A DNA stretch of 34,847 bases, from IMG/VR virus record IMGVR_UViG_3300025398_000053, positions 1 to 34,847 of that record. One strand, written 5' to 3'. Origin of the DNA: a virus. Taxonomy: Duplodnaviria; Caudoviricetes. This document shows positions 781-9,158 of the stretch, piece by piece (within the stretch, counting starts at the first letter, position 1; the number at the start of each line of letters is the position of its first letter). A model generated the notes under the pieces. The model was not told the DNA's origin. It saw only the letters and a list, made by a program, of their open reading frames with translations, and did not search any database. The position numbers and the translations under genes were made by a program.

Positions 781-801
781 AATTCCCCCTAAGTTAAAAA
801 G

Positions 802-950: not shown

Positions 951-1010
951 AAAGGTGGGGCTGAGACCTCACGGAAGGAATTTTGGCGGGGGATCACCAA
1001 CCCAGCCCCA
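951..1010 (-). ncRNA. putative small structured RNA (three-way junction, C4/CI-like)
   Basis: Minus-strand stem UGGGGCUGGG/CUCAGCCCCA with two inner hairpins whose G-U pairs favour this strand. A perfect TATAAT lies at 1021-1016, and the element ends in ACCUUU. Confidence 0.5.
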
Positions 1011-1016
1011 AAGATA

Positions 1017-1787
1017 TTATACGACCAATCCGCTTTTAATTTGGTAGAAGCGTAGCAGATGAAAAAAGCACTTTAGGCCCTTCTGCAAATCCGCTTCCTC
1101 AATCTCGCAGACCTTGACTTCATTGGTCAATCCATTGACAAAAACAATAGCGCACCGAGCATCTGACAAGCCTAATAACTCTCGGTAGGCAGCCAACTGC
1201 ATGATATGATCCTCGTATGGAACGACCTTTTCTAAAGGGACTTCTTTTGTCTTAAAATCTGCAACTACAGGGACAATGCCCTTAATCTTATCGCCTTTAG
1301 CGTGTAAGTCCACTTTTCCAGCAAATCCTAGCTCATGGCTACCAGACTTCTCAGTAACCCATAGGCGATTGCCAAACGAGGCTTTTAAGGCGTTTTCTGC
1401 ATTACGGCAATACTCAGGCACTTCAGGCAGTAAAACTTGGCTAAAAAAGGCTTCTAAGATGCCGTGGATTTGTGTTCCTCTATCGGCTGCATCTCTGCCT
1501 TGTGCTTTAGAGTCGTTGAGAACTCGGTCTAAGTAATCTTCCTCAGACTCGCCCTCATTGCGTGGTAGCGTTAGGGCTGCAAGGATAGCCTGCTGCTGAA
1601 GCCAATTCTGGAGTCCAGGCTTTGACGCCACACCGAGAATGGTAGTAACGCTCGGTAAAAGGCCCAGCTTCTTTGCATCTCTAAGAGTCGTGTTGCGGAA
1701 TCCTTTTCCATCGGCTCGTTCAATCGTATAGGCTGGCTCTCCATCTTTGGTGTACCAATGGCCTGATTCACTCTTTTGTTCCTGCAT
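1017..1787 (-). CDS. PD-(D/E)XK exonuclease (phage recombination nuclease)
   Basis: Motifs LPSVTTIL, RGTQIH, FAGKVDL, VADFKT and QLAAY. Located next to SSB-like and annealing genes. Confidence 0.85.
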   Translation of the reverse strand: MQEQKSESGHWYTKDGEPAYTIERADGKGFRNTTLRDAKKLGLLPSVTTILGVASKPGLQNWLQQQAILAALTLPRNEGESEEDYLDRVLNDSKAQGRDAADRGTQIHGILEAFFSQVLLPEVPEYCRNAENALKASFGNRLWVTEKSGSHELGFAGKVDLHAKGDKIKGIVPVVADFKTKEVPLEKVVPYEDHIMQLAAYRELLGLSDARCAIVFVNGLTNEVKVCEIEEADLQKGLKCFFHLLRFYQIKSGLVV

Positions 1788-2052
1788 TTTTTCTTCCCCT
1801 TTTTGGTTTTACTGCATCCGTGTGTATATCGTATGTTGACTCTTGGGCAACGATTGTAGCCTGTGGAGCAACAGTTATTGTAATGCCTGTATTTGCATCT
1901 TCCCAATCTTTGATAGTTGGTTCATATTCTTTTGGAATTTCTTGCCCGCACCAGTCTTGTGGCATTTTATTAATCACCACAGGGTTGAGCTTACAAGCTC
2001 CCATCATATCGTTTTGATTAAATACAAAAAACTTACATACTCGGCAAGTCAT
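1768..2052 (-). CDS. small four-cysteine metal-binding protein
   Basis: CxxC-x13-C-x14-C with DWC at the last cysteine, and a basic C-terminal tail. Confidence 0.7.
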   Translation of the reverse strand: MTCRVCKFFVFNQNDMMGACKLNPVVINKMPQDWCGQEIPKEYEPTIKDWEDANTGITITVAPQATIVAQESTYDIHTDAVKPKRGRKNAGTKE

Positions 2053-2530: not shown

Positions 2531-2541
2531 GTTGTTTCCCC

Positions 2542-3190: not shown

Positions 3191-3233
3191 TTAAATTCCC
3201 CTTAAATGACATAGCGAAGTTGCTATACCCTTG

Positions 3234-3261
3234 ATTGTAAGCAAATTGATTGGCTTGTCAA
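3234..3261 (-). promoter_or_regulatory. leftward sigma70-type promoter (pL-like)
   Basis: TTGACA (3261-3256), 16-nt spacer, TACAAT (3239-3234). Confidence 0.7.
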
Positions 3262-4787: not shown

Positions 4788-4977
4788 AGCAGGGGTGCGC
4801 CAGCTATGTAAGTGGCGATCAGAGTGGGGTTTGGCTAAATTTAGATTGTATATTTCAAAGCATCAGTTACCAGAAGCATTGTTAAAAGATTTTTATACAC
4901 AGTATCAATTAGGAAACAGGGGGGAATACAAATGTTGGAAAAAACCATTATCGCAGCAACAGGGCTTGGATATTTGA
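4744..4977 (+). CDS. hypothetical protein
   Basis: 77 aa ORF after an AAGGA SD, with a GNRG motif near the C-terminus. Confidence 0.65.
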   Translation: MSSNSGNSELEAIHKAGVRQLCKWRSEWGLAKFRLYISKHQLPEALLKDFYTQYQLGNRGEYKCWKKPLSQQQGLDI

Positions 4978-5078
4978 TGGTAGGTATTTTGCAATTACGC
5001 AAGGGGGCGTTTCCTAACGCAATTATTTGGTTAGGTTATGCGTTTAGTCAAATTGGTCTTTGGCTTGCATTAAAGTAA
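4932..5078 (+). CDS. 48-aa two-TM membrane protein
   Basis: Not in the ORF track. MLEKTIIAATGLGYLMVGILQLRKGAFPNAIIWLGYAFSQIGLWLALK, with an AGGGGGGA SD and TAATG coupling to the next gene. Confidence 0.7.
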   Translation: MLEKTIIAATGLGYLMVGILQLRKGAFPNAIIWLGYAFSQIGLWLALK

Positions 5079-5605
5079 TGGATTTATTTGATTTTCCTAG
5101 AATTGTTCCTGAAAGCCCAAAGTTGATGACTTTGCGTGAGGTAGGGGTTGATTATGCTATGGAAAAAAATGCGGATTGGCATAGTCGTTTGCCTGTTACA
5201 AGTCATTCAAATATGATTAGAAATGCTCACAAAGTTTTTTATGGCGCAGAATACAAAGATCATTGTTTTGCAGTTGCTATGTGGACTGACCCTGTGGCTG
5301 GCAATCGTATGTCAAAAGACCATGTATGGCTTGAATTAAGAAGGTTAGCTATTGCGCCTGATGCACCAAAATTTACTGCTACCTGGATGATTTCAAAAAT
5401 GGTTAAGGATATACAAAAGCGTTTTCCAGATGTAACTATGCTTGTTTCTTATCAAGATACTGAGGTTCATTCTGGAACAATTTATAAAGCTGCTAATTGG
5501 AATCTAGATACAGTTAGTAAATTTCAAGAATGGTCAAGTGAAAAAAGAAAAAGAAACGCATTACAAAGCAAGGCTGATAAAATTAGATGGAGCTATGCAA
5601 TATGA
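5078..5605 (+). CDS. Mom-like (GNAT-fold) DNA modification protein
   Basis: LELRRL...ATWMIS...LVSYQD...HSGTIYKAANW matches the Mu Mom family pattern. Start re-assigned to ATG at 5078. Confidence 0.75.
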   Translation: MDLFDFPRIVPESPKLMTLREVGVDYAMEKNADWHSRLPVTSHSNMIRNAHKVFYGAEYKDHCFAVAMWTDPVAGNRMSKDHVWLELRRLAIAPDAPKFTATWMISKMVKDIQKRFPDVTMLVSYQDTEVHSGTIYKAANWNLDTVSKFQEWSSEKRKRNALQSKADKIRWSYAI

Positions 5606-6351: not shown

Positions 6352-6698
6352 AGTTCCAAAGGATCAAAACCTAATTCGGTAGCGACTCGCTTTGCTCTGC
6401 GTTTGAATGTGGCATCGTGTTTAGTCCAAGCATGAGTGACTGTGTTGGCTCGGCTCATGTGAATCATCTCATGGCATAGCGTTGTCATAACTGTGTAAAG
6501 ATGCCCACAACGAGCTTCTGATACTGTGACTATGTGTTCCCAATCTCCATCATCGTGCAAGTATGTACCCATCGCTTCTGGGTCTGCATCAACAATAAAT
6601 TTAATTTGTTCTGGTAAAGGCATATCCCATTTGCAATATGGTTCGCAACATACCATTGCACTATAAAGATTGCGTAAGATGGCGGGTGTCAGTTTCAT
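6348..6698 (-). CDS. SprT-like zinc metallopeptidase
   Basis: TLCHEMIH (HExxH) followed by a downstream H..F. Confidence 0.75.
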   Translation of the reverse strand: MKLTPAILRNLYSAMVCCEPYCKWDMPLPEQIKFIVDADPEAMGTYLHDDGDWEHIVTVSEARCGHLYTVMTTLCHEMIHMSRANTVTHAWTKHDATFKRRAKRVATELGFDPLEL

Positions 6699-7651
6699 AC
6701 TGAGTGGATCTTGCCTCTAAACTCAACTTCATCCTCGCCCCACACTCGTACCATTTCAGGCTGTAATAATTTGCTACGCTCAAAGGTCAGCATTACAAAG
6801 CCACTATTCCAATCTTTAGGCGTATCTTCTGTGTAGTTAAACTGTGGGCCATTAGGATCGCTTAGAGTGCCTGTTTGAACGCCATAGCGAGTGCCGTTAT
6901 AATCGTTAAAGGGGATGCTAGATAAAACGTGAGTATGCCCTGTAATCATGTTTACGCCTGAATTGACAGCATTGTTTCTACCACCAGTCCATCCACCTTT
7001 CCACCGATGCTTGATACAAGTGTCCTCATTGATCCAAACAGACCAACAAGGTTGCCACATAGGAAAATACTCTTTTAAAGAAGTCCCAGGCACGCCTTCA
7101 AAAGCAGGAAGAAAGTTAACCACATTGCTAGTAAAACGCATATCGTGATTCCCAAGCGGCCAGAATAATTTTGCACCTTTGCCTACCTTTTCAATTTCAC
7201 CTAAATAATGTTGACAAGCCTCAAGTTCTTCTTTGACAGATGGCAACTTGTCGAAATCCATCCTAGGATGGCGACTGATCCCGGCCCCGTCGAAAGCGTC
7301 TCCGTTACAAATAATAGCTGTAGGCTTAAACTCTTTAATTGATTCTAATAGAGCTTTATAGGCGGTAGTCGTAATATCGGGCCAAAAGTGTGCATCGCTA
7401 AAAACAATGACTCTACCTTGTTCTAAATCAAACCCTCTGCGAGTATGACCTTCTGCTTGCATTACTTTGCTAATAGGTATTCTTGCGTCATTGAAAGTAG
7501 GCAATTCAATGCCTAAGCGACTTTCTATTGATCTTCTGCGGTTATATACTGCCCGAATGTTTAATTTATGTTTTTTTGCAAATCTTGCGGGGCTTCCTAT
7601 TGCTTTCCACTCTGCTATCCATTGTTCATCCGTAAGATAATAACCTGACAT
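6695..7651 (-). CDS. calcineurin-like metallophosphoesterase with N-terminal HTH-like segment
   Basis: Full motif set SDAH, GDAFD, GNHD, KH and GHTH. Confidence 0.85.
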   Translation of the reverse strand: MSGYYLTDEQWIAEWKAIGSPARFAKKHKLNIRAVYNRRRSIESRLGIELPTFNDARIPISKVMQAEGHTRRGFDLEQGRVIVFSDAHFWPDITTTAYKALLESIKEFKPTAIICNGDAFDGAGISRHPRMDFDKLPSVKEELEACQHYLGEIEKVGKGAKLFWPLGNHDMRFTSNVVNFLPAFEGVPGTSLKEYFPMWQPCWSVWINEDTCIKHRWKGGWTGGRNNAVNSGVNMITGHTHVLSSIPFNDYNGTRYGVQTGTLSDPNGPQFNYTEDTPKDWNSGFVMLTFERSKLLQPEMVRVWGEDEVEFRGKIHSV

Positions 7652-8379: not shown

Positions 8380-8697
8380 ATGGCTGATGAAATTGTATCA
8401 TTTAGACCTCTGGCGGATAAGATCATTGTCCGACCAGATGTTCGTGTTTTAAGCTCTGTATTAATTGTTAATAACAAAGAAGCTGAGAACATGGGAACTG
8501 TTGTTGCTGTAGGGCCTGGCAAGAAATTGTCATCCGAAAGACGTGAAGCTATGCCGATTGCTGTAGGGCAACGAGTACGTTTTGGCACTATGAACGACAA
8601 TCCCAAAGAGGAGTATCTTAAGTTCACACCGATTAACCATAATGGTGAAAAGTGTCTTTTAATGAGCTGGCAGGACATCTGCTGGACAGAAGGGTAA
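8380..8697 (+). CDS. groES: co-chaperonin GroES/Cpn10 homologue
   Basis: FRPLADKIIVRP, GTVVAVGPGK, VGQRVRF and LLMSWQDI all match Cpn10. Confidence 0.9.
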   Translation: MADEIVSFRPLADKIIVRPDVRVLSSVLIVNNKEAENMGTVVAVGPGKKLSSERREAMPIAVGQRVRFGTMNDNPKEEYLKFTPINHNGEKCLLMSWQDICWTEG

Positions 8698-9142: not shown

Positions 9143-9158
9143 ACCTAAAGGGGGAAGT

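What the first reader, a model, noticed from the sequence alone, without database searches (positions are those of the whole stretch)
951..1021. Promoter-driven small RNA candidate with tRNA-like end and anti-Shine-Dalgarno loops
Seen: a perfect TATAAT overlaps the exonuclease stop. It is followed by a stem GGGGCUG/CAGCCCC and then ACCU, resembling a 7-bp acceptor stem with discriminator and CC. One loop exposes AUCCCC and the junction reads AAUUCCUUCC. Several nearby genes use AGGGGA-type SDs (upstream of 780, 1787, 2530, 3190, 4932, 9159). Established: P1 C4 and P4 CI antisense RNAs are multi-stem RNAs matured by RNase P. Inference: a trans-acting translational repressor of early genes.
Basis: partly seen in the sequence, partly recalled or inferred. 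Interest (0 to 1): 0.7.

Follow-up and report, generated by a model that had tools for sequence, protein, structure and literature searches.

The report
Phage RNA mirroring early ribosome-binding sites
Freshwater bacteriophages carry a conserved 57-base sequence, predicted to be a folded small RNA, whose exposed C-rich loop matches the G-rich ribosome-binding sites of their own early genes and changes together with those sites between lineages, so it likely switches early genes off at translation; no transcript or repression has been measured.

Summary
Observation confirmed: minus strand 1009-953, right after the exonuclease stop. It belongs to a structured RNA family absent from Rfam: a closing stem with compensatory changes, a hairpin with a C-rich loop and a 3' ACC, heading a cassette of small RNAs and tRNA-Asn in integrase-less freshwater podophages. 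The anti-Shine-Dalgarno idea gains comparative support. Phages with the C-loop RNA use G-run SDs on early genes (52 G : 31 AGGA-type) and phages without it rarely do (14:78); late genes use AAGGA in both. Across eight loop types the loop sequence tracks the lineage's own exonuclease SD (exact permutation p=3e-4). Limits: presence/absence needs only 2 changes on the tree; the window's own loop pairs just 5-6 bases; the second 'anti-SD' (AAUUCCUUCC) is partly stem and not conserved; TATAAT has no -35; RNase P processing, expression and repression are untested. It works like P1 C4 or mycobacterial 6C RNA but is not a C4 member. The scan noted a similar idea before on other, unrelated DNA (e1-7847080, unchecked). 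Verdict: new variant of a known kind, interest 0.7.

The parts
953..1009 (-). RNA1: predicted 57-nt three-way-junction small RNA (G1 at 1009; 3' ACC at 956-954)
1001..1009 (-). closing stem P1, 5' strand (9 bp with 965-957)
   Evidence: compensatory pairs at positions 5, 6 and 7
957..965 (-). closing stem P1, 3' strand
983..1000 (-). hairpin 1 with exposed loop AUCCCC (994-989), the predicted anti-SD seed
967..978 (-). hairpin 2 (CCUU/GAGG, loop CCGU); conserved module with no established target
1016..1021 (-). TATAAT, candidate -10 element 6 nt before G1, overlapping the exonuclease stop; no -35
1017..1787 (-). exonuclease gene upstream of the RNA; predicted target
1795..1799 (-). GGGGA SD of the exonuclease, predicted target site
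1817..1822 (-). CACGGA, complement of the hairpin-2 loop, 17 nt upstream of the exonuclease SD; possible second contact, window clade only
784..789 (-). GGGGGA SD of the 24-aa membrane ORF 780-706, predicted target
2537..2541 (-). GGGGA SD of the SSB gene (2530), predicted target
3197..3201 (-). GGGGA SD of the first leftward gene (3190), predicted target
3234..3261 (-). leftward early promoter-like site TTGACA-16-TACAAT (11 of 12 matches); read-through from it would also transcribe RNA1
4919..4925 (+). G-run SD of rightward gene 4932, predicted target in trans
9150..9155 (+). GGGGGA SD of gene 9159, predicted target in trans

Best explanation
The element is a conserved sequence predicted to be a stable, tRNA-ended phage small RNA that likely pairs its exposed C-rich loop with the G-run Shine-Dalgarno sites that its own lineage uses on early genes, and so would block their translation while sparing most AAGGA-type late genes. 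Steps: (1) structure - shown by comparison (compensatory stem, exposed loop); (2) production from the TATAAT -10 starting at G1 and/or by RNase P cutting of read-through early transcript, with a 3' end at ACC(N) - inferred; (3) G-run SDs concentrated on early genes of phages that carry the loop, with loop and SD sequence changing together - shown by comparison; (4) pairing in trans and ribosome occlusion - inferred; (5) role as a delayed shut-off of recombination, SSB and small early genes in integrase-less phages - inferred.
For: Structure: 94.5% of cells paired, 6 of 15 pairs with double-sided changes, 0 of 500 shuffles as high, slid controls lower; median z -3.3 over 27 variants. A model built from the window clade alone finds the clade with ~54% exonuclease identity (E 0.015-0.3) and nothing in 14 RNA-negative genomes. 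SD class G:AGGA-type, RNA+ vs RNA-: leftward early 52:31 vs 14:78 (11 vs 14 genomes), rightward early 17:22 vs 0:15 (9 vs 7), late 25:217 vs 6:118. Orthologues switch class: exonuclease 26 of 28 vs 2 of 19 unique sites; ~204-aa gene 8 of 10 vs 1 of 17; ~30-aa membrane ORF 22 of 22 vs 0 of 5. First SD-bearing gene after the cassette: 47 of 55 vs 0 of 19. Coding G content is equal (0.23 vs 0.23). Newly fetched set: G-run SD at the exonuclease in 10 of 10 C-loop loci vs 4 of 44 others. Loop tracks SD: UCCCCUA with UAGGGG, CCCCUUUA with UAAAGGGG, CUCCCUUU with AAAGGGAG, 7-10 Watson-Crick pairs; own-vs-other permutation p=3e-4 (exonuclease site) and 3.5e-3 (first downstream gene) over 8 loop types, 0.008-0.04 over five-lineage subsets. 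Same scaffold with an ACAAAA loop in L805/L815 goes with no G-class SD. In the window the 7 best predicted targets of 52 are exactly the G-SD genes. Precedent: C4 b' loop occludes the RBS (PMC5320573, passages); 6C RNA binds several mRNAs through C-rich loops without chaperones (PMC6486639, abstract).
Against: Presence/absence needs only 2 changes on the exonuclease tree, and 1 is not ruled out, so the pooled counts are not independent. The window's own loop pairs its own SDs by only 5-6 bases (-4.5 to -7.2 kcal/mol with accessibility), and loops of other lineages pair the window's SDs better (up to 9-10 pairs); types A1, A2 and B1 show no own-site advantage at the exonuclease. Early vs late energies in the window differ at p=0.057 only. 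Many early genes of RNA+ phages keep AGGA-type SDs, and late gene 27775 has GGGGAU. RNA-negative genomes G016-G018 have 2-4 G-class early sites. Two GenBank relatives use an AGGUGA early SD with no UCACCU-bearing RNA found, so early SD dialects can exist without a matching RNA. Loop types and C-loop labels in the new set were assigned by eye with the SD data in view.
Confidence: 0.6

Rival explanations
1. Same anti-SD pairing, but the job is immunity: the RNA silences early genes of the resident phage in a carrier state or of incoming related phages, as C4 and CI do.
For: G-run early SDs are shared by many related phages; only one Cro-like HTH gene and no separate repressor ORF between 3190 and 3303; C4 and CI are immunity RNAs (PMC5320573, PMC4825925, passages).
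Against: No tyrosine integrase in 0 of 20 genomes at least 90% complete; no phage-like locus with the RNA inside a bacterial chromosome among 35 genome loci (two short MAG contigs carry it). Serine integrases and plasmid partition genes were not searched.
Confidence: 0.15
2. The RNA is a tRNA-like decoy or processing signal (RNase P site that cuts the early transcript, or bait for a host defence nuclease), and the SD match is lineage hitch-hiking.
For: Acceptor-like stem with ACC; sits 5-8 nt before tRNA-Asn or other ACC-ended RNAs in relatives; only 2 label changes on the tree; conserved UUC in the second module.
Against: Does not explain why loop flanks and C-run length follow the lineage's SD at three separate genes; ARAGORN finds no tRNA; the second loop lacks the T-loop consensus (sequence, against recalled consensus).
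Confidence: 0.12
3. The loop targets host mRNAs or acts as a mimic of the 16S rRNA tail to redirect ribosomes to late phage genes.
For: Pyrimidine-rich segments such as CUCCUU and UCAC recur in cassette RNAs of several lineages.
Against: The loop follows phage SDs, not a constant rRNA tail; it pairs AAGGAG or AGGUGA poorly (-2.9, -2.4 kcal/mol). The host is unknown, so host targets could not be tested.
Confidence: 0.06
4. It is a cis element only: a terminator of the exonuclease transcript, a stabilising 3' structure, or a leader acting on the downstream gene.
For: Lies directly 3' of a stop codon; strong G-C stem; the next gene has a matching SD.
Against: No terminator called, only 3 U after ACC; other RNAs follow within 5-8 nt in relatives; G-run SDs are also enriched on the opposite-strand early operon, 17:22 vs 0:15.
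Confidence: 0.05
5. Pairing activates or stabilises the G-SD mRNAs rather than repressing them.
For: Comparison shows a match, not its sign.
Against: The predicted duplex covers the SD itself, which in C4 occludes the ribosome (PMC5320573, passage).
Confidence: 0.02

Closest known systems
C4 antisense RNA of phages P1/P7 (Rfam RF01695)
   Same: Small phage RNA with a closing stem and two hairpins, GG at the 5' end, a loop predicted to cover ribosome-binding sites; a possible upstream second contact (CACGGA) in the window clade resembles the a/b layout (PMC5320573, passages).
   Different: No match to the C4 model; ~57 nt against ~77; targets are several dispersed early genes sharing an SD type rather than paired a/b sites of an antirepressor operon; phages lack a tyrosine integrase.
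CI RNA of satellite phage P4
   Same: Short processed phage RNA acting by antisense pairing; hairpin-like RNase P substrate lacking a T loop (PMC4825925, PMC5499578, passages).
   Different: CI pairs seqA/seqC flanking it in the same leader and causes termination; no such flanking complements were found here beyond SD cores.
6C sRNA of Mycobacterium (and other C-rich-loop sRNAs)
   Same: C-rich loop binding several mRNAs through G-C pairs without chaperones (PMC6486639, abstract).
   Different: Chromosomal actinobacterial RNA with two C-rich loops; no Rfam match; no tRNA-like ends.
T4 stable RNAs species 1 and 2 (bands C and D) in the tRNA cluster (recalled, no call)
   Same: Non-tRNA structured RNAs lying in a phage tRNA cassette with acceptor-like ends.
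   Different: Longer, no known antisense target; no sequence comparison was made.

Membership tests
C4 antisense RNA (RF01695) | Match to the C4 covariance model | tested here: not met
   No gathering hit in the window, none at E<=10 in 760-1150; the C4 model gives only a 12-bit hit elsewhere in G000 and none in four relatives.
C4 antisense RNA (RF01695) | Closing stem plus two stem-loops | tested here: met
   for the window clade; in lineages D-F the second hairpin is a 6-7-nt bulge.
C4 antisense RNA (RF01695) | Two loops pairing bipartite a/b targets, b at the RBS | tested here: inconclusive
   Loop 1 matches SDs; the loop-2 complement CACGGA lies upstream of the exonuclease SD in 31 of 35 window-clade contexts (all 31 that share the upstream gene) but inside coding sequence, and no counterpart in clade B (GTGA in 3 of 125).
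C4 antisense RNA (RF01695) | 5' end made by RNase P from a longer precursor | not testable with these tools
   G1 and 3' ACC are compatible with it; TATAAT spacing also fits a primary start at G1.
C4 antisense RNA (RF01695) | Part of a lysogenic immunity region controlling an antirepressor | tested here: not met
   Neighbours are exonuclease, SSB, Sak and small ORFs; tyrosine integrase in 0 of 20 genomes. An antirepressor was not searched genome-wide.
P4 CI RNA | Complementary seqA/seqC sites flanking the RNA in its own leader | tested here: not met
   Nearest complements are 5-6-nt SD cores and CACGGA 800 nt upstream.
tRNA / tmRNA | Cloverleaf with D, anticodon and T arms, or tmRNA tag | tested here: not met
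   ARAGORN 0 genes; no Rfam tRNA hit in the window.
tRNA / tmRNA | Acceptor-like stem with 3' NCC(A) | tested here: met
   Stem of 8-14 bp and ACC in the 27 variants (many collected with patterns that demanded ACC; one row mis-anchored); encoded end is ACCU/ACCC, not CCA; L734 lacks ACC.
Intrinsic terminator | Short G-C hairpin followed by a U tract | tested here: not met
   Not called at this site; ACC then 3 U.
6C RNA | Match to the Rfam model; two C-rich loops | tested here: not met
   No Rfam hit; one C-rich loop only.

The most novel reading that the evidence does not exclude
These phages run a sequence-coded translational timer: each lineage writes its early genes with a private Shine-Dalgarno dialect and carries a tRNA-ended small RNA whose loop co-evolves with that dialect, silencing a dispersed early regulon on both strands without a protein repressor and defining RNA-level exclusion groups among related phages; the other RNAs of the cassette would be interchangeable scaffolds for such seeds.
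Probability: 0.35. Interest if true: 0.85.

Novelty: new variant of a known kind. Interest (0 to 1): 0.7.

Why it matters
If true, it is a multi-target antisense switch in phages with no integrase found, where RNA control of gene timing is little described, and the loop/SD co-variation hands over ready-made compensatory mutants for a direct test. A 57-nt, chaperone-independent scaffold that picks mRNAs by SD variant would also be a compact orthogonal translational repressor, and it gives a reason for the odd GGGGGA start signals seen in these freshwater phage genomes.

Tried and rejected
Rfam: no gathering hit in the window or for the cassette RNAs, only chance matches at E<=10. MAFFT alignments mis-registered the closing stem and RNAalifold found no pairs on the 27-row alignment; replaced by anchored counts and a model-fitted alignment (which leans to its structure). 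Loose stem patterns gave mostly unrelated matches; the metagenome scan read 6 of 64 parts and gave only known types. Model R2 missed the divergent members L490 (E 1.7), L516 and L732-L743; these are grouped by position, architecture and the shared CUUCAC module, not by model score. A first loop/SD test within clades A and B was weak (p 0.014 and 0.04). Module 2 against AGGA-type SDs: not significant. My early count that TATAAT marks RNA-positive loci (1 of 20 negatives) was overturned by new loci (40 of 44 negatives). Search for a UCACCU RNA in two AGGUGA-SD phages: none found. blastn of the region against cultured phages: only short low-complexity matches. Host search through GroES homologues and capsid relatives gave no host. 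Sequencing runs: no RNA holder listed, which is no evidence either way. Overlapping plus-strand ORFs (847-1047, 912-1055) rejected as the conserved feature: variant lengths of 53-61 nt break frame.

Full report
Observation. The features lie on the minus strand as described: TATAAT 1021-1016 overlapping the stop of an exonuclease gene (1787-1017; phrog_298), then 6 nt, then a 57-nt unit from G1009 to U953. It folds as a three-way junction: a 9-bp closing stem, hairpin 1 with loop AUCCCC, hairpin 2 with loop CCGU, and a free ACCU (-25.9 kcal/mol, z -2.7 to -2.8; plus strand z -1.0). No Rfam family matches, ARAGORN finds no tRNA, and no terminator or full promoter is called here.

Setting. The window is a 34.8-kb virus record, 96% complete, with P22-like portal and terminase, a Cro-like HTH gene, a divergent early promoter-like site at 3261-3234 and a leftward Sak-SSB-exonuclease operon (30 proteins of the first 14 kb scanned). 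No tyrosine integrase was found in 20 of 20 related genomes at least 90% complete. The host is unknown; a Betaproteobacteria-1 RNA in relative L785 is the only hint.

Conservation. Of 80 loci fetched with the exonuclease, 62 are at least 75% identical; 58 of these extend past the stop and all 58 carry the element, 55 directly after the stop (one cut by the contig end) and 3 after an inserted HNH-like gene. Loci at 37-49% identity do not show it there. Pattern and profile searches added a clade at ~54% identity. Among 27 variants the first eight closing-stem positions pair in 26-27 of 27 (one row, L490, was mis-anchored), with C-G/U-A and U-A/G-C/A-U exchanges at positions 5 and 6; median folding z is -3.3. 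A model built from 15 window-clade variants finds the distant clade at E 0.015-0.3 and nothing at E<=1 in 14 genomes judged negative. On the fitted alignment 94.5% of cells pair and 6 of 15 pairs change on both sides, above all 500 shuffles and all slid controls (such an alignment leans to its structure). Invariant parts are G1-G2, the C run of loop 1 and the 3' ACC; many variants were collected with patterns that required ACC, and L734 lacks it.

Cassette. In relatives the RNA is followed within 5-8 nt by other units: a second ACC-ended stem RNA with a variable insert, a third RNA ending in a U tract, and tRNA-Asn. TATAAT stands 6-7 nt before G1 in 45 of 61 unique contexts, with a best -35 of 2 of 6 matches in 42 of 61. 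It also stands at the exonuclease stop in 40 of 44 new loci without the C-loop RNA, so it is best read as the -10 of the whole cassette. A start at G1 leaves no leader; RNase P would matter for read-through transcripts and for the downstream units. Bacterial RNase P acts on hairpin-like substrates through 3'-end pairing (PMC5499578 and PMC11143913, passages), which fits the ACC; this step is inference.

Targets. I fetched 29 related records and called genes with my own simple script (noisy). G-run against AGGA-type SDs, RNA-positive vs negative: leftward early 52:31 vs 14:78 (11 of 16 and 14 of 14 genomes had the anchor gene), rightward early 17:22 vs 0:15 (9 and 7 genomes), late 25:217 vs 6:118. 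Orthologous genes switch class with the RNA, as does the first gene after the cassette (47 of 55 vs 0 of 19). Coding G content does not differ. A later fetch gave 54 new unique loci: G-run SD at the exonuclease in 10 of 10 C-loop loci and 4 of 44 others; at the first downstream gene 10 of 10 and 6 of 43 (labels set by eye with SD data in view). These counts are not independent: the label needs 2 changes on trees of 111 and 58 exonucleases, and one origin is not excluded (quick trees).

Co-variation. The stronger evidence is that loop and SD change together. Lineage D has loop UCCCCUA and SDs UAGGGG; E has CCCCUUUA and UAAAGGGG; F has CUCCCUUU and AAAGGGA(G). In each, the same three positions carry the match: first leftward gene, exonuclease, first gene after the cassette, with 7-10 Watson-Crick pairs. 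With sites chosen by position only, own-loop advantage over 8 loop types gives exact p=3e-4 (exonuclease) and 3.5e-3 (downstream gene), and 0.008-0.04 for five-lineage subsets. E, F and C490 rest on one locus each, and lineages D-F are assigned to the family by position, architecture and the CUUCAC module, since model R2 does not score them. Loci with the same scaffold but an A-rich loop (L785, L792, L805, L811, L815) have no G-class SD.

Against. The window's own lineage shows no own-site advantage; its loop gives 5-6 pairs, -4.5 to -7.2 kcal/mol after opening costs, though the seven best of 52 start regions are the G-SD genes and 3% of 60 random late coding windows reach -4. Late gene 27775 is among them. 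The hairpin-2 complement CACGGA upstream of the exonuclease is kept in 31 of 31 contexts sharing the upstream gene, through a rare Thr codon, but is absent from 4 others and has no counterpart in clade B. Two GenBank relatives use AGGUGA on early genes with no matching RNA found.

Mechanism. Most likely (0.6): a stable small RNA accumulates after infection and its loop covers the G-run SD of early mRNAs from both early operons, turning them down while AAGGA late genes are spared. Shown: structure, position, SD partition, co-variation. Inferred: transcription, ends, pairing, sign and timing. Rivals: immunity or exclusion by the same pairing (0.15), tRNA-like decoy or processing signal (0.12), host targets (0.06), cis element or terminator (0.05), activation (0.02).

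Comparison and novelty. It works like P1 C4 (RBS-occluding loop, three stems; PMC5320573, passages) and 6C RNA (C-rich multi-target loops; PMC6486639, abstract) but fails the C4 model and context tests and lacks CI-type flanking targets (PMC4825925, passages). Ten literature searches (listings only unless named) showed no description of this family. PMC2864571 was seen as passages (motif table). For PMC10690425 I read part 2 of 5 of the text, the supplement list and the first part of one table, and searched 3 of 6 supplements without a match; the alignment files could not be read, so the motif may be among its unnamed candidates. The scan's index has no look-alike sequence and one similar idea on other DNA. 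Verdict: new variant of a known kind; interest 0.7.

Noticed in passing
window 872-796 (-): A second candidate RNA: leader stem UCAGGUCA/UGACCUGA with a variable interior and a U tract, just before the SD of ORF 780; outer stem kept in 7 of 8 aligned loci (one row was cut short), with 2 compensated pairs; no Rfam hit. Possible attenuator or small RNA.
   Followed up: partly
L414 2558-2640, L406, L030, L472, L793 (after the exonuclease stop): 'RNA2': short stem with GAAA/AGUA internal loop, variable insert and 3' ACC; in several lineages the insert shows pyrimidine-rich segments (CACUCCUU, CUCCUUCAC). No Rfam hit.
   Followed up: partly
L029, L404, L469, L493 (cassette end): 'RNA3': ~95-nt RNA starting GGGCGUUAAG, with a compensated long-range pairing AAGCCGC/GCGGCUU, conserved AGGAUG and a terminal U tract; present with or without RNA1. 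No Rfam hit.
   Followed up: partly
L730 (MW202520), L731 (MW202674), L739, L764, L781, L790-L813: A third early-gene SD dialect, AGGUGA/AGGUAC, with AAGGA on late genes; no UCACCU RNA found in the two GenBank records.
   Followed up: partly
L753, L768, L778, L784: No C-loop RNA, but a terminator hairpin after the exonuclease whose 3' strand UAUCCCUUU is the 9-nt complement of the next gene's SD region AAAGGGAUA (4 of 4); may be chance.
   Followed up: partly
L469, L475, L755, L789 and kin: Stand-alone hairpin with UUCACG loop right after the exonuclease stop; downstream leaders carry GUGA upstream of AAGGAG. The window-clade loop CCGUGA is the reverse complement of UCACGG, as after a loop inversion.
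   Followed up: no
L020-L022, L279 (between exonuclease and RNA): An inserted HNH-like gene whose own stop codon again forms TATAAT in front of the RNA.
   Followed up: partly
L027, L028, L030, L034, L467-L474: tRNA-Asn in the same cassette slot.
   Followed up: no
L097, L027, L055 and kin, ~60 nt after the RNA: Palindrome TTGA(C/T)C(T/C)AG(A/G)TCAA overlapping the -35 of the next promoter in several lineages; operator-like.
   Followed up: no
L785 2004-2125 (-); L790 6958-7024 (+): Rfam Betaproteobacteria-1 RNA (101.8 bits) and int-alpA RNA (38.7 bits) in relatives.
   Followed up: no
window 8380-8697, 5060-5605, 6695-7651: Phage-encoded GroES, Mom-like DNA modification protein and a metallophosphoesterase on the opposite strand.
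   Followed up: no
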